DNA of 64,000 nucleotides, taken from Naegleria gruberi (taxonomy: Eukaryota). The notes beneath the pieces were generated by a model. It saw only the letters and a program-made list of their open reading frames with translations. It did no database searches and had not been told where the DNA came from. The translations under genes and the position numbers were made by a program. Shown in pieces: positions 3,119 to 24,811 of the stretch. Location of the stretch: NCBI GenBank assembly GCA_000004985.1, contig GG738855.1; one strand, 5' to 3'. How positions within the stretch are numbered: position 1 is the stretch's first letter; each line of letters begins with the position of its first letter.

Positions 3119-6100
3119 TTATTCTGTTTGATAATAGATTACAACATTTCTTGTACCACCAGCAGCAAAGAGAGGGAACTTGTCATGGAAGCAGCACGAT
3201 CCAACTTTTTCACCTTCTATATCTTGTAAAATACCTACACACTGGGCAGTTCTGCAATTGAAGATGATAATCAAACCCTTAGACGTTCCAGTGACAAGAT
3301 ATGGAGATATTTCTGCATTTCCAGAAACTCCAATCGCTGTCACATTATCATTTGAAGAATCAGAAAGTTTAGGAATATCCTTCTTATTGTATGTGTGTAA
3401 TCTTGTAGCTGCTTCATTCAAAAAGAACAAACCACAAAGTTGAGCATTTTCAGTAACATTCTCTTTGTGAATAGCAACCAAAAATATTCCTTGGTTTGCT
3501 CCAGTGGTTACAGCCTTAATTACAGAAGAGTAAATAACAGAGTATGGATTTAAAGCTATTTTTTGGAGTAATTTTCCACTACTCATTCTCCAAATGCCAA
3601 TATATGAATTAGTACTTCCAATTACAAAATCTTTCAATTCAGGGACAAACTGAAGGTTATTGATGGCTTCCTTTCCATTAAGGGTTTGGAATGTGACAAC
3701 CTTGACCCTACTCGTAAAATCACTTGTGAGCATGTATTTTAAAAGTTCTCCATTATTGGTTGCAACCATCAAAGTAGAGTCGTAAACTTCCATACAAGAT
3801 ATTGGTGATCTTACATCATCCAAGCTTAATAGGGGTTTTTTCTCTTGACCCAACTGACTTCTGATTGATGACCCATCGATATCAAAGAATCTGATATGAT
3901 AGGAGAGAGTTCCATCAGCTTGGGCAGGATTTTCATCATCCAGTATGGACATGGTCATGGTTATTGATGGTTCAAATGAGGAAGAGGCAATAATCAACAT
4001 TTCTCCATCAGGTGTAAACTTGGAAGAATAAAACTCCTCATTTTCTTCATTTTCTAAACCAAAAAGTTCTGTTTGAATCCATTCTGATCCTGTTAGCTCA
4101 ATTAAGGATACTTGAGTCTTTGTACAAATAGTTAATCTGGGATCACCTACTGGTGAAAATATCATGTTCAAAACTGGACCCTTAATCTTGATCCTACTAT
4201 AGGACTTGAGAGGATGTTGCTTGTCTATTTTTTCGATTGGATGTCTAGGTAGAGAATTTTGTGATAGCACAGGTTGAGATCGCATAGGAGAGGCAAAACT
4301 GGCACGTGGAGGACTGGAAAGTGGAGGTGTGCTTAGATTACTTTTGTCTGCATCATTTTCAGATGTAACAGGTTTTGTGGCACTGGATGAAGCCAGCACA
4401 GGTGAGGAAGGTATTTCTTCCTCATCTTCTGATTCAAAATTCAAACTAAAATTGACAGCGATTGTTGGCTCAAGCTCATATTTAGGTTTAACATCCAAAG
4501 TTTCACCCTTGTTCACTATTGGAGGAGATCCTAAATTAGCTTTTGTTAGAATAGGTGAAAAGTTGATTGGTGGTGAACTGAAATCTTTGATTTCAAAAGT
4601 TTGAGAAGGTGTTCTTGGTGACAATTCATCATCTGTTTCATCATCTTGAACTTGCATAAATGGATTCTTCTTTTTGCTTGGAGAAATATCGCCTGGATTC
4701 AAAACTATCTTTACAGCAGAGTATTGTGTCTCTTCCACCTCTTCAAGAATTACATCAGATTTAGGAGTGGTATATGACAATATTCTACTGGTATTATGTG
4801 GTGGTGTAGACATTGGTGGTGGATTATTATCTTCTTCCATTTCATCATCACTAACATTTGCTCCTTGAGATTCAAGTGGATCGTAATAGACTGTTGGAGG
4901 AATTACAATTTGTGGTGATTGTGCCTTTTCCTTTGGCTTAATTGGAGTTGGGGTTGGTGGAACTTCTTCATCATCAATCATTGTGTCAGCTTGTTTCACA
5001 TTTCCTTCTTTTGTAGTTTCTTCTTTAGCTGGTGGTGTAATATCCAAGTTCATGGATGGAAGGGTTTGAGGTGTTTCATCGTCTTCATCTAATTTATCGG
5101 TAGATGTCTTTTCCAGAGAAATATTTGGTTTCTGAACTGTTGGTGGAGGAGGTGATGGTGCTGTTTCAGTTTTGGTTTCTAATTTCTCTTCCAGATTCGG
5201 AAGCTCGGTTGGTGTACTCAATGATGGTGAATTCAAGTCAGCACTGTCATTGGTATTGAAATTAATGTCAACAGTAGGCATAATGAGAACAGGTTTGTTT
5301 GGTGAGGGTTTTGTGGTCGGGTTAGGACTACTTTGTTTGGCTTCTATGATTGTTATTGTGGTTGTTGCAGAACTGTTGGTGGGAACTGGTTGATGATTGG
5401 CTGGTTCCAAATCCTCCATAAATAATAAATCATCACCTGGAGGCAAAGAATCAGGTGTACTACTTGGAGAATCGAGTGTTGGTGATTTTGGAAGATCAGT
5501 ATTAATTCTGAGGGGAGATTTTGGCTTTTCGATTGGTTCACAAGTTTTTGTTGTGGATTCAATTGGTTTCACTTGTTCCACAATTGTTTCAACCTCAGCT
5601 TGTACAATTTGTTCACTTGTGATGGGTGGTTTCTTCTCAATGGTTTCAATGATGGCTGGTTCAGTAAAAGATGTGTCCTTTGGAGGAGAGTTGAAAGATG
5701 TTTCAACCTTTTCCTCTTGTGTACTTTTCTTGTTATCCAGTGGTTGAATTTCTTCTCCCTCATCCAGCATTGGATCCTTTTTGACTACTTCTTCTGTTGC
5801 TATAGTTATTTCTATTAATGGCTGTACTGTAGTTTCAGAAGGTTTTTCTATGATATCTACAATCATTTTGTCTTCATTTTGCTTAATGGTTTCCTCGATA
5901 GTACTACTAGTTGGAGGAGTAGGTGGTGGAAGAATATTTTGAGATGGTAATGAGGCTGTCAAGGATGAACTAGTACTACTGGACTTTTGGGTACTGCTCT
6001 CTTGGGTTGACCTCTTGGATTGAGATGGAAGGGATGGTACTGCAAATTCTTCGTTTCGTCTCTCGATTGGCATTTTTCGATTTTGCAAAGGAGAAATAAC

Positions 6101-7592
6101 TTTGAGCTTGTCAACTTTTGGTGATTTTGGCATATTTACAAGGGATAGACGGGTGTTTGATGTAGAATTGTCTTCACTGTCACTCTCTTCAGCAATGGAT
6201 TCTTGACTGATAAGATTGGAAGTTTGGCTTGGTATTTTGGGTGGAGAGGAAGAAATTACTTGCTCTTGGTTTGATTTTTCAACTACAATATGAGATGACT
6301 CAGAATGAGTTGGTGTTACTATTGGCTCATCCGCATTGGGTCTCGAAAGAAGCATGAAATCGAGATTTTCTCTTGCATTAGTTGGGGAGGTATTAGAAAC
6401 AGGTGTAACATCATATTCTAAAGTATCCATTTTGAGCTTTTTGAGTGGTGTAATTTCTTCTGATGAAATTATTGATGAAGAAGGTTTTGGAGAAATTTGA
6501 GAAGATTCAGAGTCAGCTCCATTCTCTCTCATTGAATCATCTTCAACATCCTTGATTACTCTCTTACTTCTCTTCTTTCGTCTTTTTACAGCTGTGGTCA
6601 ATATTGTTGATGATGAATCCTCTGAAACAGTATCATCTGTCATTGTATCTGTTTGTTGATTTTCTTCAAGGAGCCGTTTTTTAGTATTTTCTAAACTCGT
6701 AATTTCTTCCAATAACTTTGCTTTTTCCTTTTCCAAAATGTCTTTCCAATATTCTCTGTCTCTTCCTCCAAAATAGTTAACCCTTGTGGGTAAGTGTAAA
6801 TTCTTTTGTTTGGCTATAGAATTGAGTAGATTTTTCAGAAAGTCTTCACAAAATCCAAAAGCTTTCAATCCTGTTAAATCTTCTGTATTGACTCCTATAT
6901 ATACATAATCCACGATAGTTTTATCCGTATTATTGATTGCATTCTCATCTTCAACCATTTCGGGTTGATACATTTGAAATGCTTGTTTGAAAGGTTGAGA
7001 GCAGCAACTTCCCATAAATCTTTCTCCGACACCTTTCCTACTCGAAACATCAGTAACCACAAATTGTGGTCCAACTAAACCTTTTATCACCTCGATTTGA
7101 AATTGTATTAATTCTATAGCATTATCAGTGGACCAATCTTTTTCATTTGGTTTTTTAGTTCTTCTCCTTCTCCTCAGCCTGAGTATTGCTGTATAACCTG
7201 ATGGATAGGGATGTTGATATTCTCCCTTGAATTTCCTCCAATAACTTTCCACTGACCCGAACAAAGTCTTTTTCGTTGATGAATTCCAATCAGGAAGAAG
7301 GAAACTCTATCAAATCACCAAGAGAAATAACCTCCAATGGAAGACATCTCAACGTGAAGGGTGTTGTTACAATTGTTCTAGTGTTCTGTAATGATGTGTT
7401 TTTACTCTCGCCTCGATCGGATCTATTATTATTCACTAATTGATCATCAGAAAAATCGTAAATATCACAACAAAAAGTCGAATATAATTCCTCATGATTT
7501 GTTATCATCACGGAAGAAGCAGATCCTCCACCACTCGATGAAGCAGAAGCAGCAACAGAAGAGGCCGATGATGTTAATATTCTTCCGTTCAT
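3119..7592 (-). CDS. Large protein of about 1450 aa. It has a structured N-terminal region, a very long S/P/T/E-rich disordered centre, and a C-terminal WD40-like beta-propeller.
   Basis: The 1381-aa ORF 3119..7264 has no ATG at its 5' end; the track start is TTG. ORF 7290..7592 lies directly upstream, begins with ATG in the usual A-run context, and is in a different frame. One short intron must join them; candidates are 7252..7318 (67 nt, GTGATT..CAG) or 7307..7331 (25 nt, GTTATT..TAG). The C-terminal 350 aa show repeated beta-strand/WD-like segments (GDPRLTICTK, LMVATNNGELLKY, FVIGSTNSYIGIWR, YLVTGTSKGLIIIFN, FAAGGTRNVVIYY). Confidence 0.7.
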
Positions 7593-14121: not shown

Positions 14122-14141
14122 TGTATCAACACTCTAAAAAA

Positions 14142-15116
14142 ATGTCACCTCATGAATTGCTAGAAGATTATCAATTTTGGATAGAAAAATTAGTGATTGC
14201 ATATTGGATACTCGGAAGTGTCTTGTATTGTCTCCGATTTTTCAACAATTTTTTCCATTCATCATTTCAATATGGAAGATTTTCATCAACGAGTACGGAT
14301 AACTCTCCTCACACCAATCAACCAAGGAATGAATTTCTTGACAAAATTTCACACTTTATTATGAAACCTATTGTGACGGAAAGTTTTCATTGGAGAAGCA
14401 TATACTCAGTCGGATTGGTTGTGAATACTTTTGGAATTTATGTGTTTCACTCTGTGAATGGATTAGAGTGGTCAACAATTTTGATTCTTGTACTGTATGA
14501 AGCTCATCTCCTCAAGAGATGCATTGAAGTCTATTGGTTACAACCATGGGTCAATCCTCCAAGATTTGTTGGATCATTTCTATTCTTGAGTGGTGTTTCG
14601 TATTATGTCATCTCTCCAATTACATTCTTATTGGGATGCCTTAAGCGTACAGATTTGCAGAGGTATCCGCTGAATATTTTAGGAGCTTTCTTCTTTATCT
14701 ATTGCTGGTATGTAATTTGTTAAATATTTAATCACAATTAATTATTTGAATGGTCACTAGCTATCACCAATACCAATGTCACAAGATTCTCTATTCGCTT
14801 GCAAGAGAAAAAAACAAGAATCCAAGCATTGGGTATCAGATTCCAAATGGTGACTTATTTGATTTGTTATATTGTCCACATTACTCAACAGAAATCGGAA
14901 TGTACCTTTCACTCAATATTATCCTATGTTTTTCATACATTCCCTCAATGTAAGTTAATACTCCTTAGAAAATCATCTTAGAGTAATAGATTGTGTTTTG
15001 CATTCACTTCACTTAACCTTGGTTATCACTCAATTGAAACATATCGTTGGTATCAAACAAAATTCCCAAAGAAACTCCCATCTAAGCGCAAAGTACTCAT
15101 TCCTTACCTTTTCTAA
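14142..15116 (+). CDS. Polyprenol reductase / steroid 5-alpha-reductase family membrane protein (SRD5A3/DFG10-like)
   Basis: Model: join(14142..14707,14761..14949,14990..15116). The introns are 53 nt (GTATGT..CTAG) and 40 nt (GTAAGT..ATAG). The joined C-terminus reads YHQYQCHKILYSLAREK..YQIPNGDLFDLLYCPHYSTEIGMY...HSIETYRWYQTKFPKKLPSKRKVLIPYLF, the 3-oxo-5-alpha-steroid 4-dehydrogenase C-terminal pattern. The ORF opens at 14121 (ATG overlapping the upstream stop as TAATG), but the ATG at 14142 has the typical A-run context. Confidence 0.78.
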
Positions 15117-17670: not shown

Positions 17671-19938
17671 ATGCTTCAAAAATCAACAAGAAGAATTTCA
17701 TCACTTTATGCTGGTTGTGGTCGTATTTCATCAACACCATCATCATCGGGAGTTGTACTCAACACTAATAGTTCAATCAAAATAATTAACCATCAATACA
17801 GATGTTATAATAATCATTTGGCAAAATTAAATCGTCTATCGGAATTATCAAATAATAACAAGAAACAATTTAAAAATCATCGTGATAGACAATATCAACC
17901 AATGGATAACATTGAAACACCAAAGGAAGTAAAGAATGATGTAACTACAGAATCCTATACTAAAATATTGAAAAAGTTCTTCTTAAAGGTTCACCCTGAC
18001 TTTTTCCAACAAGATCCACCAAAACAACAACAAAACAAGGAGTCCTTCTCAAAATTGAACGAACTTTTAAATTGGACTAACGAATATACCCAATTAACAC
18101 TTGATAATAAGAATTTGAATGAAGAGGAAATAGCTGACCTGGAAAAGAGATTGAATAGACTTGGTCCTATTCCAAGCGTTGATGAATCATTTGTTTTCTA
18201 TGTTAAGGAAACTGGAAGACAAAAATCTGAACCATTTAGAATTGAAGTTTTGTTTTCTTTACCAAAGAAGGTTCAATTCAATGGAAAATTAAAGAGTAGA
18301 TTGATTTTAACTCAACGTTTGGAAGAATTAGTAACTTCACTTTTGGAAAAATCAAAAATCATAACTGCTGAGGAAGCTAAAGCAAGAAGAGACATTGCTT
18401 TGGAACAATACAGAGAAATGGAAGAGTCCGTGGGTTCAAAGGGTAAGAAGACCTATAAATCACTGAAAGAAGAGTTACGTATGGCTCTCCAAAATAATTT
18501 ACAAGGAGCAGTCAACCTTGAAAAATTAAGAAGAGGTGAAGAAGATGATGAAGAATGGTGGTGGGATAAAGACTTGCCATCCATTGAACACTTGGTTACA
18601 CACGGCATGCTCTTCTTCTCTAAGAATATTACAGCAGAACAAACCATCAAAGCTATGAATCAATTGAAGAATGGTCTTGGTGAGATGAGATATTATGAAT
18701 GGAGTGATATTCCATTAATGATTACAGAAAAAACTGGCAAGTATGCTGTAAATGATCCTGTTGATGGGTTCATTTGCATTCCTTATGACTTTACTCCATT
18801 CGATTTTGTCAAGGAAATCATTACCAACGAAAAGAACATGACACTCCTCGTTGAAAAACGTGAATTGACAAGAAAAAAGGCCGAAGCTATTCAAAACATT
18901 AGAGAAAAACTTATTGAAGAAGTTGGTTTCTCTGATTTAACCATTTCACCAGAATTGACCTCAGAAGAACTCTATACATTTATTGAAAACTTTGAAAAGA
19001 GATACTTAAGTAATGACAAGATGAAATTGTTACTGAAAGACCTCTGTATCATCATTGATAACAAGTATTCAGCAAGTCCAGATGGATACATTTCAATTCA
19101 TTGGAACTTTATGCACAATGGAAAGGACAATATGTTCGAATTTTTGAAAGATTTAGGAGCTCAAAAAATCAAGAATATCAAAGATATGGGAAGAACTCTC
19201 AGCAATCTTAAGAGAGCATGTGTTTCACTCGGTGAAGAACTCATTGATAAACTTAAATGTAAAGAACTCAATTTGACAACCTATGCCGATTTGAACGAAT
19301 CCAATATGAAACGGTATCAAACTCTCCCAGTTACCCACGAATATATGAAACGATTGAGAGAATGTTGCCTCTTCTTGGAACGTTATGATTGGAGCACACA
19401 TACTTTCTATTTGGTCAATACTTTGGATTTACCTAAAGGTTTCAAACTTCCACTCAAACAAGTTCCTCATGTCAAGACAGAGGCCGATGTTAAGAGTTTA
19501 ATGAGAAGAATGACAATATATGGTGATACTATCATTGATATGGGCGCCAGAGCAGTCTATATTCCTGTAAACTTTACTGAAAATCAATTGTTCGAAACAG
19601 TCAACAAATATTGGAAGATGATTGAAAAACCTCAATTGCAATTGGATGGTGATGATTTTACAGATGTTGTAGATCCTCAAGGATTCCAACAATATAGAAA
19701 TTTGGCCTCTGAACTCGTCAAACAAGCTGAGTTTATGCTGACAAAGAAGAGAGCAGAAAGATATCAACAATTGGCTGAATTCCTCAACAGTCTTGAAGAT
19801 CAACAATTGTATGGTAAGGGTGCCAATAGTATTATGGAAGCAGCACTAGATAGACAAGAAGATGAAAGATATATCAATCTGTATCGTACTTGGTTCAGAA
19901 TTAGAGATATTCCATTAGATGTTTTTGAAACTCAATAA
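17671..19938 (+). CDS. TCAIM-like mitochondrial protein (DUF4460/DUF4461-type)
   Basis: A single 755-aa ORF with a basic, S-rich N-terminus. FFLKVHPDFFQQDPPKQQQNKESFSKLNELLNW resembles the signature FAVHPDFF..HP.E...NE.SLK.LN block of TCAIM/C3orf23. The family call is from memory. Confidence 0.55.
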   Translation: MLQKSTRRISSLYAGCGRISSTPSSSGVVLNTNSSIKIINHQYRCYNNHLAKLNRLSELSNNNKKQFKNHRDRQYQPMDNIETPKEVKNDVTTESYTKILKKFFLKVHPDFFQQDPPKQQQNKESFSKLNELLNWTNEYTQLTLDNKNLNEEEIADLEKRLNRLGPIPSVDESFVFYVKETGRQKSEPFRIEVLFSLPKKVQFNGKLKSRLILTQRLEELVTSLLEKSKIITAEEAKARRDIALEQYREMEESVGSKGKKTYKSLKEELRMALQNNLQGAVNLEKLRRGEEDDEEWWWDKDLPSIEHLVTHGMLFFSKNITAEQTIKAMNQLKNGLGEMRYYEWSDIPLMITEKTGKYAVNDPVDGFICIPYDFTPFDFVKEIITNEKNMTLLVEKRELTRKKAEAIQNIREKLIEEVGFSDLTISPELTSEELYTFIENFEKRYLSNDKMKLLLKDLCIIIDNKYSASPDGYISIHWNFMHNGKDNMFEFLKDLGAQKIKNIKDMGRTLSNLKRACVSLGEELIDKLKCKELNLTTYADLNESNMKRYQTLPVTHEYMKRLRECCLFLERYDWSTHTFYLVNTLDLPKGFKLPLKQVPHVKTEADVKSLMRRMTIYGDTIIDMGARAVYIPVNFTENQLFETVNKYWKMIEKPQLQLDGDDFTDVVDPQGFQQYRNLASELVKQAEFMLTKKRAERYQQLAEFLNSLEDQQLYGKGANSIMEAALDRQEDERYINLYRTWFRIRDIPLDVFETQ

Positions 19939-19944
19939 ATATAT

Positions 19945-22182
19945 TTATTTCACCAAGTCCAAATAGTTTCCAGAATTATTATCAATATACTTGACCGAAC
20001 AAGACAAACAAGGAAGCAAAATTAAGGGAAGAGGAAGCAAAAACAATGTGGCAAACCCAAAAGAGTACTGTTCTGGATAAGCAATGATAATGGCATGATG
20101 AACGAATAAACAAATCAGACTACACAGTACGGTAATGTACATGTTAATGTACAAACAACGTTTGGTTTTCGAATAGAGAGCTCTACACTCCAAGCAACAC
20201 CACAAAAAGGCAATAAATATCGTTCCAGCAAACAAGAGAAACTCTACTACAAATAGTGGAATCATAGCCACTGCCCAATCAATCTCTGACTCAATAGAAA
20301 ATTGATGAGTAATCATGATTGAACACAGCATACTATAACAAAATGCCACTATTAAAATGATAGAGTTGCAAGTAGAAGTGAGCTTGGAAATCACTGTTCT
20401 GAATTTGATACTTCTCACAATCAACCAAATAAAACAATAAATCAGCATGATTGTCGAAAGTCCACCAAAAACGGCAAACAAATACCATGGAGATTGACTG
20501 AATTGAGAATGAGGCAGACACAAGTACAAATTCCACACAAGTGCAAAAACAATTCCACAAATAGATAAGAGTAACAATCCAATACATGACATGACACTAT
20601 CAAAAAACATCTTCCTCAAACTCAAGATATTCCTCTGTTTTTCCCTTCTCTTACTGTTATTCCTGAGCGCAATTCCAAGTTTCCTCGCTGAAAGTCTCAA
20701 CTCTATTATGGACGATACGAGAATATTAATCATTCCACAATAGAGTGGAAAGAATACCACAATCCAACTCCACTCATTCTCATAATCAATACCAACATTC
20801 ATCAACACTCCCTTAATGGAGAATCCCAATATGAAACATGTGAAAAAGATGTAAACCAAGGGTGCAGAAAATACAAAGTGAATAGAAGATAGCCCCTCAA
20901 TGTCATCCAAAATGAGTTGCTCTGATAGTGGAATAGTTGTGAAACGATCTGATTTTTTCTTTTCAATCTTTCTAAATATGTCAATTCCAAATTGTTTGAC
21001 TTTCTTTTCAGTTTTCAAACATTCACAATAACAATCCTTCTCGAAAATAATATCATTCACTCCCTCAATTGTTACCGATTTGTACTTTTTAAACATAGAT
21101 GGAGGTATCTGAACAGTTGATTCCTCGCTATCACAATCTGATTCATTAATTAGTGTCAATATTTCCATTTCTTCCTCTTCAGAAACATATTCTTCTGAGG
21201 TAAGAGTTTCTGATAATTGATGATCAATCAGAGCAGTTTGGCTAGCACCACTATTATTCGAAAACTCATCCATTTCAATTGAAATTACCTCCTGATGGTT
21301 TCTCTCACCACGTGGAGATTCAATATCCTCAATAAATTCCATAATTTTTGGTGGTGAAAAACATGAATTTTCTATTTTACAAACTCCTCCCAAGTCCAAT
21401 AGAGAAGGTTTCGTATTCACCTTCTTTCCATTCGACATTAAATAATTTAAATGATATTGACCTAAATTTCCACCCTTCTTCCTATTGAAAAAGTAATTCT
21501 TAACTGCCAATATTCTTCTCTTTACAACTTTTTCCTGCACATAAATATCAAAATCCTTAAAGTATAATAATTTCAATTCTCGTATCTTGATTTGATATAA
21601 TCTATTCCAAAAACGTTGTTCTCTATCCAGAAAATTGTACCACATTGAACAAGTATGTGATAAATTGACCATTGTCAAAGAATCATCCAAAAACTCTGAA
21701 ATAATCATCAAAATATCATTTGCAATAATATTCTCAAAATTATGCCATTCAACAGGTTTCAATCGTTGATTATTATTACGATGACGATGATGATGATGAT
21801 TTGCACCATCCAATATAATTGTTCCTTCCTCCTCCGAATCATCATTTCTATTTTCCATTATTATTGTTGTGGTGGTGTTGTGATTGTTGTTGTTATATGA
21901 AGAACTGAGGGCGTGAAAAATTCTGGCAATTGGTGATTTGGTATTGGTTCGTTGTTGATTGTTTATAATGGGAGAAGGTGGCTGGTCAGTTTGGATTGTG
22001 ATATGTTCTTCATCAACATCATGTCTTTCCATCAATAATTGATTACGAGATTGACTAACATGAGTAGTGACAGGTATTGGTGAGTCATCTTCGGAGAGGA
22101 GAGATTCAGAGTTTGCAAAACCAATTTCCGAAGTTTGAATTTGATGGTTGGATTTATTGGTGGATGATCGTTTTCTAGTCAT
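19945..22182 (-). CDS. F-box-like domain fused to a C-terminal polytopic (about 8-10 TM) membrane domain
   Basis: A single 745-aa ORF with ATG at 22182 after an A-run. The F-box-like segment is NDILMIISEFLDDSLTMVNLSHTCSMWYNFLDREQRFWNRLY. The C-terminal 330 aa consist of successive hydrophobic helices. It is paralogous to 35012..37813. Confidence 0.75.
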   Translation of the reverse strand: MTRKRSSTNKSNHQIQTSEIGFANSESLLSEDDSPIPVTTHVSQSRNQLLMERHDVDEEHITIQTDQPPSPIINNQQRTNTKSPIARIFHALSSSYNNNNHNTTTTIIMENRNDDSEEEGTIILDGANHHHHRHRNNNQRLKPVEWHNFENIIANDILMIISEFLDDSLTMVNLSHTCSMWYNFLDREQRFWNRLYQIKIRELKLLYFKDFDIYVQEKVVKRRILAVKNYFFNRKKGGNLGQYHLNYLMSNGKKVNTKPSLLDLGGVCKIENSCFSPPKIMEFIEDIESPRGERNHQEVISIEMDEFSNNSGASQTALIDHQLSETLTSEEYVSEEEEMEILTLINESDCDSEESTVQIPPSMFKKYKSVTIEGVNDIIFEKDCYCECLKTEKKVKQFGIDIFRKIEKKKSDRFTTIPLSEQLILDDIEGLSSIHFVFSAPLVYIFFTCFILGFSIKGVLMNVGIDYENEWSWIVVFFPLYCGMINILVSSIIELRLSARKLGIALRNNSKRREKQRNILSLRKMFFDSVMSCIGLLLLSICGIVFALVWNLYLCLPHSQFSQSPWYLFAVFGGLSTIMLIYCFIWLIVRSIKFRTVISKLTSTCNSIILIVAFCYSMLCSIMITHQFSIESEIDWAVAMIPLFVVEFLLFAGTIFIAFLWCCLECRALYSKTKRCLYINMYITVLCSLICLFVHHAIIIAYPEQYSFGFATLFLLPLPLILLPCLSCSVKYIDNNSGNYLDLVK

Positions 22183-22335
22183 TTTTTTAATGTCGTTTCC
22201 ACCGAGATGACAAATGAAAACTTGTTTTAAAAGATGTTTGGTTGACCTCAGTTTTATGAACCAAATTATGAACTTCTTAACATCATAACTATTTGTATTC
22301 TTAATTTTGTAAACAAGTTCTTTGATTGAATTTAA
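22137..22335. repeat. Direct repeat copy A. It covers the 5' end of the F-box/TM gene plus the spacer up to the DUF4116 ATG.
   Basis: Hand alignment to 23645..23890. For example, gatttattggtggatgatcgttttctagtcatttttttaatgtcgtttc aligns with gatttattggcggaagatcgttttcttgtcatttctttaatatcgtttc with 5 mismatches in 49 nt, and aaaagatgtttggttga aligns with aaaagatgtttggctga. Confidence 0.7.
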
Positions 22336-22340
22336 AAAAA

Positions 22341-23609
22341 ATGCTCAAACGTTTCAACAAATTTCCTCTCAAAATGATCATCTTGCCCTCTGGATACACA
22401 CCTACGCTCCGACAATCACATTCCAATCAAAATGTTGAAAACAACTCCTCCTCCTACCTCAACAATCTTCAAAATATGATCAATGAGGCTTGTTATTCAG
22501 ATGTTGTTGGATCCTATCTCAAAACTGAATTGGTGGATGCCTACATGCAAAAGAATCCCTTCCCAAATAATCAATCAATAATGGAGGAGGGAGTCACACG
22601 TTTAGGATATCTTTTGAAATATTCCAATGACAATGTTAAGAGAAATAAGAATCTTGTTAGTTCTGCTTTGAATGATGAATATCAAAATGAGGTGTTTGAA
22701 TTTTCACATGAATCACTGCGATGTGACAAGTCATTTATTATTGAGAATGTCATTGGAAAGTGTCATGTAATATTACCTTACTTGTGTGATGAATTAAAAA
22801 GAGACAAGGAATTAATCTTGAAAATTATAGAAAGAAATTGTCGTGACTTGTACTATGCCCCTGATGAATTGAAAAGTGACAGGGATATTATTGCAATGGC
22901 AGGTAGAACGAATTTGATGGTCGCTTATGAAAATGGTTCCAAAGAAATACAGCAAGACAGAGAATTCTGGAAGGATTTAATGTCATCAAAATGTTGCAGT
23001 TTTGTTTTTGGAATCCCATTTCCCTTAAATAACGATTTGGAGATGATGAATATTGCTGTGGAGCGTAATTCATTTTTTGCAATTAGTTCAACTTCGAATG
23101 AATTAAGAAATGATCGAGAGCTCATATTAAAAGCAGTGAAATTGGATGGATGGGCTCTCAAGTGGGCATCTGTTGAATTGCAAGATGATTTTGAGATTGT
23201 TTTGGAAGCTGTTAAATGTACTGGGCTTGCTTTTGAGTATGCTTCTGAAAAATTGAGAAATAATGAGATTATTACAATGGAGGCAGTGAAAACATATCCA
23301 AATGCACTATATCATACTCCAACATTGTATGATAATTGGCAGATTGTCATGACAGCTGTCAAAGTGAATGGATGGGCTCTCAAGTGGGCGTCTGATAAAT
23401 TACAAGGAGATTTTGAAATTGCTTTGGAAGCTGTCAAATCAAATGGTGAAGCTCTCCAGTTTGCATCTAAGGAATTGAGAAGTAATAAGATGATTGTAAT
23501 GGAGGCAGTAAAACAGAATGAATTTTCCATCAGATTTGCTTCTGAAGAGCTTCAAAATGATAGTGAAGTTGTAGCTGCTTCTAGAAAATACAGAATATCT
23601 AAAATGTGA
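22341..23609 (+). CDS. DUF4116 repeat protein
   Basis: ORF 22326..23609, with the first ATG at 22341 after an A-run. It contains at least 8 tandem units of about 30 aa of the DUF4116 type (..D.E.vL.AVK.nG.AL.yAS.eLr.D..iv..AV..). Examples are VKLDGWALKWASVELQDDFEIVLEAVK, GLAFEYASEKLRNNEIITMEAVK and GEALQFASKELRSNKMIVMEAVK. Confidence 0.8.
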   Translation: MLKRFNKFPLKMIILPSGYTPTLRQSHSNQNVENNSSSYLNNLQNMINEACYSDVVGSYLKTELVDAYMQKNPFPNNQSIMEEGVTRLGYLLKYSNDNVKRNKNLVSSALNDEYQNEVFEFSHESLRCDKSFIIENVIGKCHVILPYLCDELKRDKELILKIIERNCRDLYYAPDELKSDRDIIAMAGRTNLMVAYENGSKEIQQDREFWKDLMSSKCCSFVFGIPFPLNNDLEMMNIAVERNSFFAISSTSNELRNDRELILKAVKLDGWALKWASVELQDDFEIVLEAVKCTGLAFEYASEKLRNNEIITMEAVKTYPNALYHTPTLYDNWQIVMTAVKVNGWALKWASDKLQGDFEIALEAVKSNGEALQFASKELRSNKMIVMEAVKQNEFSIRFASEELQNDSEVVAASRKYRISKM

Positions 23610-23644
23610 AATTAACTCAAAAAATACCATGTTTCATCCAATCT

Positions 23645-23890
23645 CAGTTAGAGTTTGTTGCATCCTTTTTGGAATCTTCCTCTACATTTACACAAGAGAG
23701 TTGTTTGTGATTAATAATGAATTTGATGATTTATTGGCGGAAGATCGTTTTCTTGTCATTTCTTTAATATCGTTTCTGTGACAAGTGAAATCTTCAAAAG
23801 ATGTTTGGCTGATGGTTATTATTGGTTACCAAATCATAACATCCTTTAAAATAATTATTCCTCTTTGTGAACTATTCAATTAAACTAAAG
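23645..23890. repeat. Direct repeat copy B, a diverged copy of 22137..22335 lying 3' of the DUF4116 gene
   Basis: See copy A. This copy contains a dead start region of an F-box/TM paralogue and a copy of the promoter spacer. Confidence 0.7.
23688..23759 (-). pseudogene. Truncated 5' stub of an F-box/TM paralogue (24 codons then stop)
   Basis: The minus strand from 23759 reads ATG ACA AGA AAA CGA TCT TCC GCC AAT AAA TCA.. = MTRKRSSANKSSNSLLITNNSLV*. The intact neighbour begins MTRKRSSTNKSNHQIQTSE... (22182 downwards). No continuing ORF follows. Confidence 0.6.
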
Positions 23891-23899
23891 TATTCAAAA

Positions 23900-24811
23900 T
23901 TAGTCCAATTCAAATTTGTAATCGAGATCAGGACGTCTTTCTGAAATGTCACCCTCAAATTTAAGCAATTGTTTTTTGACTGACGTCTTTTTATCCAAAG
24001 GTTGATATCTTTGATAAGCTCCAATTCTCAAATCTTGTGAAACATATGATGGCTCATTATAGTCATTCTTTGGAACAATTAGAGGTGCCTTATTACTCGA
24101 CTTCAAATATCTTTGTTGAATGGATTGAGTCGTTTCTTGTCTTTCATTTTCAACAGTTTGATTATTAGACATCTTTTTCAATTGATCCTGTTCAAATTCC
24201 TTTAATTGTCTTCCGACCAACTTTAAATGAGATCTACGCATAGCTTGATACTCAATTGGAAGAGGCTTCCTTTCAGAATCCAAATCTTTCAACATTGTTT
24301 GTCTATCAGCAGAAGGAGCTGCCATAACTAATGGTGAACGACCTGTTGGTATATTTGTAAATAATTCCTCAGTTCCCTCTGCATAGAATCTATTGTAAGG
24401 TCTCCACGATACAAATGACCTAGTATGTTTTGAATCCTCATCCTCATCATCAATTCCTCTAACTGCTTTATCAATTTCATCACTCAAAAACATGGCACTT
24501 CTCAAAACTCTCAAATCAGTAACCTTTCCTCCAGTATCTCTGAAGAAATCTTCCAGTGCTCTTTTCTGTTTCTCTCTATTGGTTATTCTCCTCTCCAAGG
24601 CTTGTTGCTCTGCAGATTTTGCAAAGAGTGATTCCGAACTTGTAAGTGCTGGACTTCCAATAATTACTCTCTTTACATGTTCCGAAAGTAAATGTCTCAA
24701 GAAACGATAGGAAAGCAAACTGACAAGCGATGCTATCAGTGATATCTATTAAATGATTGCAATTTTAATTATCTTTCCGATTAATAATATACTTACAAGT
24801 GATGATCCCAT
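23900..24811 (-). CDS. Hypothetical protein (about 286 aa) with an N-terminal hydrophobic anchor
   Basis: Model: complement(join(23900..24745,24797..24811)). A 5-codon first exon ATGGGATCATCACTT is followed by a 51-nt intron (GTAAGT..AATAG) and then ISLIASLVSLLSYRFL.., in frame with track ORF 23900..24718. No family recognised. Confidence 0.65.

What the first reader, a model, noticed from the sequence alone, without database searches (positions are those of the whole stretch)
22137..23890. The DUF4116 gene is bracketed by diverged direct repeats about 200 bp long, and the distal copy holds a dead gene start
The sequence from the first codons of the F-box/TM gene through the spacer to the DUF4116 ATG (22137..22335) recurs just after the DUF4116 stop (about 23645..23890). 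It has a roughly 90%-identical core (5 mismatches in 49 nt by hand alignment) and looser flanks. The distal copy preserves ATG-ACA-AGA-AAA-CGA-TCT-TCC (MTRKRSS) but hits a stop after 23 residues. The layout fits an ancestral tandem duplication of an [F-box/TM + spacer + DUF4116] unit followed by deletion. Alternatively the DUF4116 cassette moved along with its flanking sequence. DUF4116 families are hugely expanded in some protists, so this could be a fossil of the expansion mechanism.
Basis: seen in the sequence. Interest (0 to 1): 0.5.

Follow-up and report, generated by a model that had tools for sequence, protein, structure and literature searches.

The report
Decayed gene-start copy beside DUF4116 gene
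In the amoeba Naegleria gruberi, a 110-160 base piece holding the start of a conserved F-box membrane-protein gene was copied once to a spot 1.6 kb away, on the far side of the neighbouring DUF4116 gene, and has since decayed; it is a real but ordinary leftover of a small local duplication.

Summary
The window is Naegleria gruberi. The direct repeat is real but shorter than reported. 22136-22245 matches 23718-23812 (85 matches, 10 mismatches, 15 gap columns; z=27 against shuffles; blastn E=2e-18). A weak collinear extension reaches 22293/23859, and nothing matches beyond that. The distal copy carries a dead start, MTRKRSSANKSSNSLLITNNSLV*, with a 5-nt frameshift deletion. Homology stops 47 nt into the coding sequence. 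There is no third copy in the 64 kb window, and none in the metagenome or viral collections. The whole N. gruberi genome could not be scanned.

The "F-box/TM" gene (NAEGRDRAFT_47219) is a conserved gene with one homologue found per genome. In N. lovaniensis, N. fowleri, an uncultured Naegleria and Willaertia its upstream neighbour is NUFIP1, never a DUF4116 gene. The layout and the duplication are therefore specific to the N. gruberi lineage. The DUF4116 gene has no close paralogue (about 29% identity at best within N. gruberi), no terminal inverted repeats and normal base composition, so a recent duplicative "cassette" is not supported.

Three origins remain open:
- a 1.58-kb tandem duplication followed by loss of the second DUF4116 copy (favoured, because N. 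lovaniensis DUF4116 clusters show this kind of turnover);
- a one-step templated patch;
- an insertion with a long target duplication.

Interest is low.

The parts
22136..22293 (.). Proximal repeat copy A. It holds the first 47 nt of the F-box/TM coding sequence (22136-22182, read on the minus strand) plus 111 nt of the upstream spacer. 22136-22245 is firmly supported. 22246-22293 is a weak collinear extension.
23718..23859 (.). Distal repeat copy A', lying in the convergent spacer between the DUF4116 stop (23609) and the stop of the 23900-24718 gene. 23718-23812 is firmly supported. 23813-23859 is a weak extension.
23688..23759 (-). Dead gene start inside A': ATG at 23759, 23 codons (MTRKRSSANKSSNSLLITNNSLV), then TAA. 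Compared with the live start it has 3 substitutions (2 synonymous, 1 Thr->Ala) and a 5-nt frameshifting deletion. Homology is lost after 47 nt (42 nt in the dead copy).
19945..22182 (-). Live F-box/TM gene, a 745-aa uninterrupted ORF (NAEGRDRAFT_47219; the public model is only 380 aa). It has a poorly conserved N-terminus, an F-box-like segment at about aa 150-196 and a multi-pass hydrophobic C-terminal half. One homologue per genome was found in N. lovaniensis, N. fowleri, a Naegleria sp. and Willaertia.
22341..23609 (+). DUF4116 repeat-protein gene (NAEGRDRAFT_47220, XP_002679953; the public start is at 22374). It is the gene bracketed by A and A'.
23610..23717 (.). Unique 108-nt 3' flank of the DUF4116 gene. 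It ends at the sharp left boundary of A' and has no similarity to the F-box/TM gene body or to 23860-23905.
23900..24718 (-). Neighbouring minus-strand ORF (272 aa from a TTG; no Pfam family). Its stop codon lies 40 nt from the end of A'. It is not the NUFIP1 gene that sits upstream of F-box/TM in the other species.

Best explanation
The distal element is a non-functional remnant of a local DNA duplication that happened in the N. gruberi lineage, after the ancestral NUFIP1-F-box/TM adjacency had been broken. I favour two steps. First, a 1,582-bp head-to-tail duplication of the segment 22136-23717. That segment holds the first 47 nt of the F-box/TM coding sequence, the 158-nt divergent spacer, the whole DUF4116 gene and 108 nt of its 3' flank. 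The second unit therefore began with an F-box start that was truncated, and so dead, from the outset. Second, a deletion removed the redundant second DUF4116 copy from about 47 nt upstream of its ATG onwards. This left a solo 142-nt stub next to the 3' end of the next gene. The stub then decayed by substitutions, small indels and a 5-nt frameshift.

Shown: the repeat, its boundaries, its decay, its restriction to this lineage, the absence of further copies within reach, and duplication with partial loss in a DUF4116 cluster of a sister species.

Inferred: the two-step order, the deleted second gene copy, and the lack of function.
For: - The repeat is real and occurs as a single pair in 64 kb.
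- The left boundary is sharp at 22136/23718, inside the coding sequence. Nothing further matches the gene body, so the unit started there.
- The copies are in direct orientation with an offset of 1,577 nt, which makes one full [A+DUF4116+3' flank] unit followed by the start of a second.
- The stub shows decay consistent with neutral evolution: a frameshift, a premature stop, and identity falling from 90% in the core to roughly 70% (estimated by eye from the alignment) in the distal upstream part.
- F-box/TM has one homologue per genome and NUFIP1 upstream of it in four other genomes, so the arrangement is derived in N. gruberi.
- N. lovaniensis locus L001 holds five DUF4116 genes with 1.5-2.9 kb segmental duplications at 88-93% identity and mosaic partial units. 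Four non-cluster Naegleria loci (about 80 kb) have essentially no DNA repeats. Duplication followed by partial loss is therefore how this family turns over.
- The DUF4116 gene also carries an internal 222-bp duplication at 79% identity, so the locus is prone to duplication.
Against: - This needs two events where a templated patch needs one.
- No remnant of a second DUF4116 copy is detectable in 23813-23899.
- No outgroup close enough to N. gruberi was available to show an intermediate state.
- Genome-wide copy number of the unit could not be measured, because the N. gruberi assembly is not indexed in the tools.
- Lack of function is inferred from decay only. No expression data were available.
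Confidence: 0.4

Rival explanations
1. One-step templated patch (filler DNA or template switch). A break or stalled fork in the convergent spacer between DUF4116 and the next gene was repaired by copying about 140-160 nt from a template 1.58 kb away on the same molecule, the F-box/TM start and its upstream spacer. This inserted A' between 23717 and 23860. No second DUF4116 copy ever existed.
For: - It is a single event and explains both sharp edges of A' and the absence of any trace of a second DUF4116 copy.
- The size (95-142 nt), the short distance and the direct orientation fit templated insertions known from double-strand-break repair in other eukaryotes (my own knowledge, not tested here).
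- Without A', the convergent spacer would be 148 nt.
Against: - No microhomology is visible at either junction, although the boundaries are blurred by later divergence (read directly).
- No independent evidence exists that such patches occur in Naegleria. There is no other example in the 64 kb window or in about 80 kb of other Naegleria loci.
Confidence: 0.3
2. Insertion with a long target duplication. The ancestral order was gene3 - about 140-nt spacer - F-box/TM. A 1.42-kb segment carrying the DUF4116 gene (22294-23717) was inserted at staggered breaks about 158 nt apart, and fill-in duplicated the target (A and A').
For: - The A-X-A' layout is what a target duplication looks like.
- An evolutionary breakpoint lies immediately upstream of F-box/TM in N. 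gruberi: NUFIP1 is the neighbour elsewhere and is absent from the window.
- The distance from the dead ATG to the gene3 stop is 140 nt, within the 96-199 nt range of NUFIP1-F-box spacers in the other Naegleria.
Against: - No close paralogue exists as a source copy. The best within N. gruberi is about 29% identical, whereas the flanks are still about 89% identical, so only a conservative move of a single gene would fit.
- The segment has no terminal inverted repeats, no transposase and no poly(A) tail.
- The composition of the DUF4116 gene is typical of the window.
- A 158-nt target duplication is far longer than those made by known transposition mechanisms (my own knowledge).
Confidence: 0.12
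3. The distal copy is functional. It could be an alternative upstream first exon of F-box/TM spliced across the DUF4116 gene. It could be a retained promoter driving antisense transcription into DUF4116. Or it could be a 3'-UTR segment of the convergent genes that pairs with the 5' end of the F-box/TM mRNA.
For: - The ATG context and a second upstream block are the best-preserved parts (90% identity in each block).
- On the minus strand the dead ORF ends at ...CTTGT|GTAAAT, which resembles a splice donor, and would be in frame with an AG after codon 2 of the live gene (read directly; weak).
Against: - The copy has a frameshift and an early stop.
- The pattern of higher identity near the ATG is also expected if only the proximal copy is under constraint.
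- The implied intron of about 1.5 kb would be much longer than typical Naegleria introns (my own knowledge).
- No Rfam family matches, and no expression data were available.
Confidence: 0.05
4. Both copies belong to a dispersed repeat or small mobile element of the N. gruberi genome that happens to overlap the F-box/TM start.
For: The complete N. gruberi genome could not be scanned, so this cannot be excluded.
Against: - Exactly two copies occur in the 64 kb window. The core pattern gives no match in the metagenome or viral collections.
- The pair has no inverted termini.
- The proximal copy includes the native N-terminal codons of a conserved gene whose orthologues start in a similar way.
Confidence: 0.05

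Closest known systems
Truncated tandem (segmental) duplication leaving a gene-fragment pseudogene
   Same: The copies are direct and the offset equals one unit. The unit boundary falls inside a neighbouring gene, so the copy of that gene's start is non-functional from birth. The copy has since decayed by a frameshift and substitutions. Comparable duplication and partial loss is seen in the N. lovaniensis DUF4116 cluster.
   Different: Only the first 142 nt of the second unit remain. The rest, including the second DUF4116 gene, is absent without trace, so the tandem stage is inferred rather than observed.
Filler-DNA or templated insertions at repaired double-strand breaks (described in plants, Drosophila, yeast and human tumours; cited from my own knowledge)
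   Same: A short patch of about 100-150 nt is copied from a nearby template on the same chromosome into an intergenic site, with no mobile-element features.
   Different: No junction microhomology can be recognised, and the mechanism has not been documented in Naegleria. Nothing here separates it from duplication plus deletion.
Target-site duplications flanking inserted DNA
   Same: Direct repeats of host sequence immediately flank a discrete segment that carries one gene.
   Different: The repeat is about 110-158 nt rather than 2-20 nt. The enclosed segment has no inverted termini, transposase, LTR or poly(A), and no source paralogue exists.

Membership tests
Transposable-element insertion with target-site duplication | Terminal inverted repeats, LTRs or a poly(A) tail at the ends of the enclosed segment | tested here: not met
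   No inverted repeat links 22294-22340 with 23610-23717. The 3' end reads ...GATTAATAA, with no poly(A).
Transposable-element insertion with target-site duplication | The enclosed segment encodes transposition functions, or is one of many near-identical copies | tested here: not met
   The only gene is a DUF4116 repeat protein. The best paralogue within N. gruberi is about 29% identical. There is no second DUF4116 gene in the window.
Transposable-element insertion with target-site duplication | Short duplication of a length characteristic for the element (2-20 bp) | tested here: not met
   The repeat is 110-158 nt.
Tandem segmental duplication (truncated second unit) | Direct orientation, with the second copy starting exactly where the first unit ends | tested here: met
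   A at 22136 and A' at 23718 are both on the + strand with an offset of 1,577-1,582 nt. Unique sequence runs up to 23717.
Tandem segmental duplication (truncated second unit) | The second unit continues collinearly with the first beyond the flank | tested here: not met
   Similarity ends by 22293/23859. 23860-23899 matches neither 22294-22340 nor the 3' flank 23610-23717. An extra deletion must be assumed.
Dispersed repeat family | More than two copies, at unrelated loci | tested here: inconclusive
   There are two copies only in the 64 kb window, and none in the metagenome or viral collections.
Processed pseudogene (retrocopy) of F-box/TM | A copy of mature mRNA: coding body present, upstream promoter DNA absent, poly(A) tail | tested here: not met
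   The copy holds only 47 nt of coding sequence plus at least 63 nt (probably 111 nt) of upstream spacer, and has no poly(A).
F-box protein (the label used for the neighbouring gene) | Match to an F-box profile (Pfam PF00646 or PF12937) | tested here: inconclusive
   The N. gruberi protein itself gives no Pfam hit even at E<=10. Of the 6 aligned proteins, 4 match F-box-like (best E 3.5e-8) and 3 match F-box. The segment is the best-conserved block of the alignment. No solved structure matches by sequence.
DUF4116 (PF13475) repeat protein | Repeated matches to PF13475 above the gathering score | tested here: met
   256 bits against a cut-off of 24.9, in 6 stretches.

The most novel reading that the evidence does not exclude
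The stub may not be inert. It keeps the F-box/TM start context and its proximal upstream block, and it sits between two convergent genes. It could fire antisense transcription through the DUF4116 gene. Alternatively, as part of overlapping convergent 3' UTRs, it could yield double-stranded RNA about 89% complementary to the translation-start region of the F-box/TM mRNA. Either way, the expression of the neighbours would be coupled through a duplicated gene start.
Probability: 0.05. Interest if true: 0.45.

Novelty: new member of a known kind. Interest (0 to 1): 0.15.

Why it matters
The finding matters little on its own. It is one small, datable scar of local duplication in a compact protist genome where DNA-level repeats are otherwise rare: only two in 64 kb, both at this gene. 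It marks an evolutionary breakpoint next to a conserved gene, because the NUFIP1-F-box/TM adjacency kept in four other Heterolobosea is broken here. It also adds a data point that DUF4116 genes in Naegleria are gained and lost by local segmental duplication. Comparison among N. gruberi-complex strains could turn it into a worked example of how such families are born and die. A practical by-product is that the public gene model for NAEGRDRAFT_47219 appears truncated.

Tried and rejected
- Chance similarity is rejected: z=27, no comparable score among 1264 real control segments, and 0 of 100 shuffles give the core pattern.
- The 200-245 nt extent is rejected. The outer flanks are not above shuffled sequence.
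- Synteny through the DUF4460 neighbour failed. Orthologous loci in N. fowleri, N. lovaniensis and a metagenomic Naegleria (L002-L004) share only that one gene with the window, so they say nothing about the repeat.
- The word-indexed homologue search for F-box/TM returned nothing, probably because low-complexity words filled the candidate cap. The full-library HMMER search found five matches: the truncated public N. gruberi model and four orthologues.
- I asked whether the gene at 23900-24718 is the NUFIP1 neighbour seen in other species. It is not: no tblastn or Pfam match.
- I asked whether N. fowleri P0010, the best N. fowleri DUF4116 match, lies beside the DUF4460 orthologue. It does not map there.
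- Upstream spacers of the orthologues cannot be aligned with A or A' beyond the ATG context, so no conserved promoter motif could be defined.
- A mobile element or cassette is not supported: no terminal inverted repeats, no transposase, no close paralogue and ordinary GC3.
- A known RNA family is ruled out: no Rfam match at E<=1.
- The bacterial promoter/terminator scan is not applicable to a eukaryote and was ignored.
- Metagenome and viral scans for relatives of the gene or of the repeat core found none.
- Exact-protein look-ups showed that the N. gruberi assembly is not indexed, so other N. gruberi DUF4116 loci could not be inspected.
Full report
**Source and genes.**
The window has 34.6% G+C. 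The ORF at 22341-23609 (+) is 100% identical to the Naegleria gruberi protein XP_002679953 / NAEGRDRAFT_47220, a DUF4116 repeat protein (Pfam PF13475, 256 bits, six stretches). Its public model starts at 22374. The uninterrupted minus-strand ORF at 19945-22182 (745 aa) matches the public model NAEGRDRAFT_47219 (380 aa, 98% identity over residues 1-372, then divergent). A further minus-strand ORF ends at 23900. The layout is therefore: F-box/TM gene (minus), a 158-nt divergent spacer, the DUF4116 gene (plus), a 290-nt convergent spacer, then the next gene (minus).

**Is the repeat there?**
Yes.
- The repeat finder reports a 49-nt ungapped core, 22151-22199 vs 23728-23776, at 90%, and a second block, 22226-22245 vs 23793-23812, at 90%.
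- A gapped local alignment runs from 22136 to 22293 against 23718 to 23859 and scores 102.
- A thousand dinucleotide-preserving shuffles give 22.1 ± 2.9 (max 36). The best of 1264 real segments from the same AT-rich window scores 34.
- blastn gives E=2e-18.
- A degenerate consensus of the core finds exactly these two sites in the window, and none in 100 shuffles.

**How far does it extend?**
I tested the pieces separately.
- 22136-22199 vs 23718-23776: z=20.
- 22200-22245 vs 23777-23812: z=8.8.
- The next 48 nt (22246-22293 vs 23813-23859) are not significant by local alignment but are modestly so by collinear global alignment (21 of 3000 shuffles).
- 22294-22340 vs 23860-23899 shows nothing. 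Neither does the sequence left of the boundary, 22050-22135 vs 23610-23717.

The unit is thus 110 nt for certain and about 158/142 nt probably, not 200-245. The distal copy begins at 23718, not about 23645. Over the firm part there are 85 matches, 10 mismatches and 15 gap columns.

**The dead start.**
On the minus strand the distal ATG (23759) opens MTRKRSSANKSSNSLLITNNSLV followed by a stop. The live gene opens MTRKRSSTNKSNHQI... Within the shared 47 nt of coding sequence there are two synonymous changes, one Thr->Ala change and a 5-nt deletion that shifts the frame. Ten bases later all similarity stops. The duplicated unit therefore began 47 nt inside the F-box/TM coding sequence. The rest of the gene was never part of the surviving copy.

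**Is it a common element?**
Not within reach of the tools.
- A self-comparison of the whole 64 kb at E<1e-6 returns only two repeats: this one, and a 222-bp internal duplication of the DUF4116 gene (23132-23294 vs 23354-23515, 79%).
- The repeat core has no match in the JGI metagenome or IMG/VR collections.
- No Rfam family matches the region.
- The full N. gruberi assembly is not indexed in the locus look-up. Genome-wide copy number remains untested.

**What the neighbours in other genomes say.**
The word-indexed search found no relatives of the 745-aa protein, probably because its low-complexity runs filled the candidate cap. The full-library HMMER search found five: the truncated N. gruberi model, plus one protein each in N. 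lovaniensis, N. fowleri, an uncultured Naegleria (metagenome ERZ27315067) and Willaertia magna. All four are collinear with the whole 745-aa ORF. Four of the six aligned proteins match Pfam F-box-like (best E 3.5e-8). The N. gruberi protein itself does not. The 'F-box' label thus rests on orthology.

In all four other genomes the gene immediately upstream of the F-box/TM start is NUFIP1. It lies in tandem with spacers of 96-199 nt in the three Naegleria and in divergent orientation in Willaertia. No DUF4116 gene is nearby. NUFIP1 is absent from the window, and tblastx finds only the F-box/TM gene shared between these loci and the window. The DUF4460 gene on the other side is likewise the only gene shared with its orthologous loci.

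Three points follow.
- F-box/TM is an old gene with one homologue per genome.
- Its adjacency to a DUF4116 gene is peculiar to N. gruberi, and a rearrangement breakpoint lies just upstream of its start.
- The duplication, at about 89% identity, is much younger than the split from the other species, whose upstream spacers can no longer be aligned.

**Is the DUF4116 gene a recent arrival?**
Nothing says so.
- Its nearest relatives anywhere are about 35% identical, and its best N. gruberi paralogue about 29%. No source copy of comparable age to the flanks exists.
- The enclosed segment has no inverted termini and no poly(A).
- Its GC3 (0.319) lies within the range of the window's genes, 0.226-0.349.

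**How DUF4116 genes turn over in Naegleria.**
The N. lovaniensis locus L001 carries five DUF4116 genes on one strand. It has segmental duplications of 1.5-2.9 kb at 88-93% identity, units with different boundaries, and short fragments repeated at 98%. Four other Naegleria loci totalling about 80 kb contain essentially no DNA-level repeats. Local duplication with partial loss is thus a documented behaviour of this family in a sister species.

**Explanation.**
An A-X-A' layout can arise in three ways.
- **(a) Tandem duplication then deletion.** A tandem duplication of [A+X] = 22136-23717 (1,582 bp) is followed by deletion of the second X.
- **(b) Templated patch.** A alone is copied into the convergent spacer in one step.
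- **(c) Insertion with target duplication.** X is inserted into an ancestral gene3-F-box/TM spacer, with a 158-nt target duplication.

Option (c) is weakened by the missing source paralogue and by the length of the duplication. Options (a) and (b) cannot be separated with the data at hand. No trace of a second X remains, and divergence has blurred the junctions. I favour (a) at about 0.40 because of the N. lovaniensis precedent and the internal duplication in the gene. I put (b) at about 0.30, (c) at about 0.12, and a functional stub or a dispersed element at about 0.05 each.

In every version the distal copy is best read as a decaying relic. The gradient of identity, highest around the ATG and lowest far upstream, is what is expected if only the proximal copy is constrained. 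It does not require function in the distal one.

**Verdict.**
The interpretation as a duplication fossil is reasonable in outline, but the 'whole-gene unit' and 'mobile cassette' versions are not supported. This is an ordinary small duplication remnant of low general interest. Its value is as a marker for comparing strains of the N. gruberi complex (such genomes exist; PMC9928731).

Noticed in passing
window 19945-22182 (-): The public N. gruberi gene model NAEGRDRAFT_47219 is 380 aa. It matches residues 1-372 of this ORF and then diverges. The uninterrupted 745-aa ORF is collinear to its end with orthologues of 646-788 aa in N. lovaniensis, N. fowleri, a Naegleria sp. and Willaertia. The public model looks truncated or mis-spliced.
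   Followed up: partly
window 23132-23294 vs 23354-23515: The DUF4116 gene has an internal direct duplication with a 222-bp period and 79% identity. It is the only other DNA-level repeat in the whole 64 kb window.
   Followed up: partly
L005 6694-7857, L006 6662-7801, L007 1774-2790, L008 6529-7683: NUFIP1 is the immediate upstream neighbour of the F-box/TM gene in N. lovaniensis, N. fowleri, an uncultured Naegleria and Willaertia magna. This is a conserved gene pair across Heterolobosea that is broken only in N. gruberi. Two of the F-box/TM orthologues also give weak hits to Tmemb_185A ('Transmembrane Fragile-X-F protein', E 0.024).
   Followed up: partly
L001 (N. lovaniensis PYSW02000025.1, 507096-528646): A cluster of five same-strand DUF4116 genes has 1.5-2.9 kb segmental duplications at 88-93% identity. 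A 248-bp piece is present three times at 98% (6074-6321, 14127-14373, 21158-21404), which is more similar than the genes around it.
   Followed up: partly
L002 12774-14310 (-) (N. fowleri): In N. fowleri the gene just downstream of the DUF4460 orthologue is a divergent DUF4116-like gene. It occupies the position that F-box/TM holds in N. gruberi. N. lovaniensis and the metagenomic Naegleria have other genes there, so this flank is variable in every species examined.
   Followed up: partly
window 19938-19945: The DUF4460/DUF4461 gene (17671-19938, +) and the F-box/TM gene (19945-22182, -) converge with only 6 nt between their stop codons. Their 3' UTRs must overlap on opposite strands.
   Followed up: no
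one search hit list (P0012, P0021, P0038, P0097): Proteins annotated from Legionellales, Parachlamydiaceae and Fusobacterium appear in the hit list for this Naegleria DUF4116 protein (about 26-45% identity). The first two are amoeba-associated lineages, which suggests exchange of this repeat family between amoebae and their intracellular bacteria.
   Followed up: no
window 22341 vs 22374: The DUF4116 ORF has an in-frame ATG 11 codons upstream of the public start (MLKRFNKFPLK-MIILPSG...). Which one is used is unknown.
   Followed up: no
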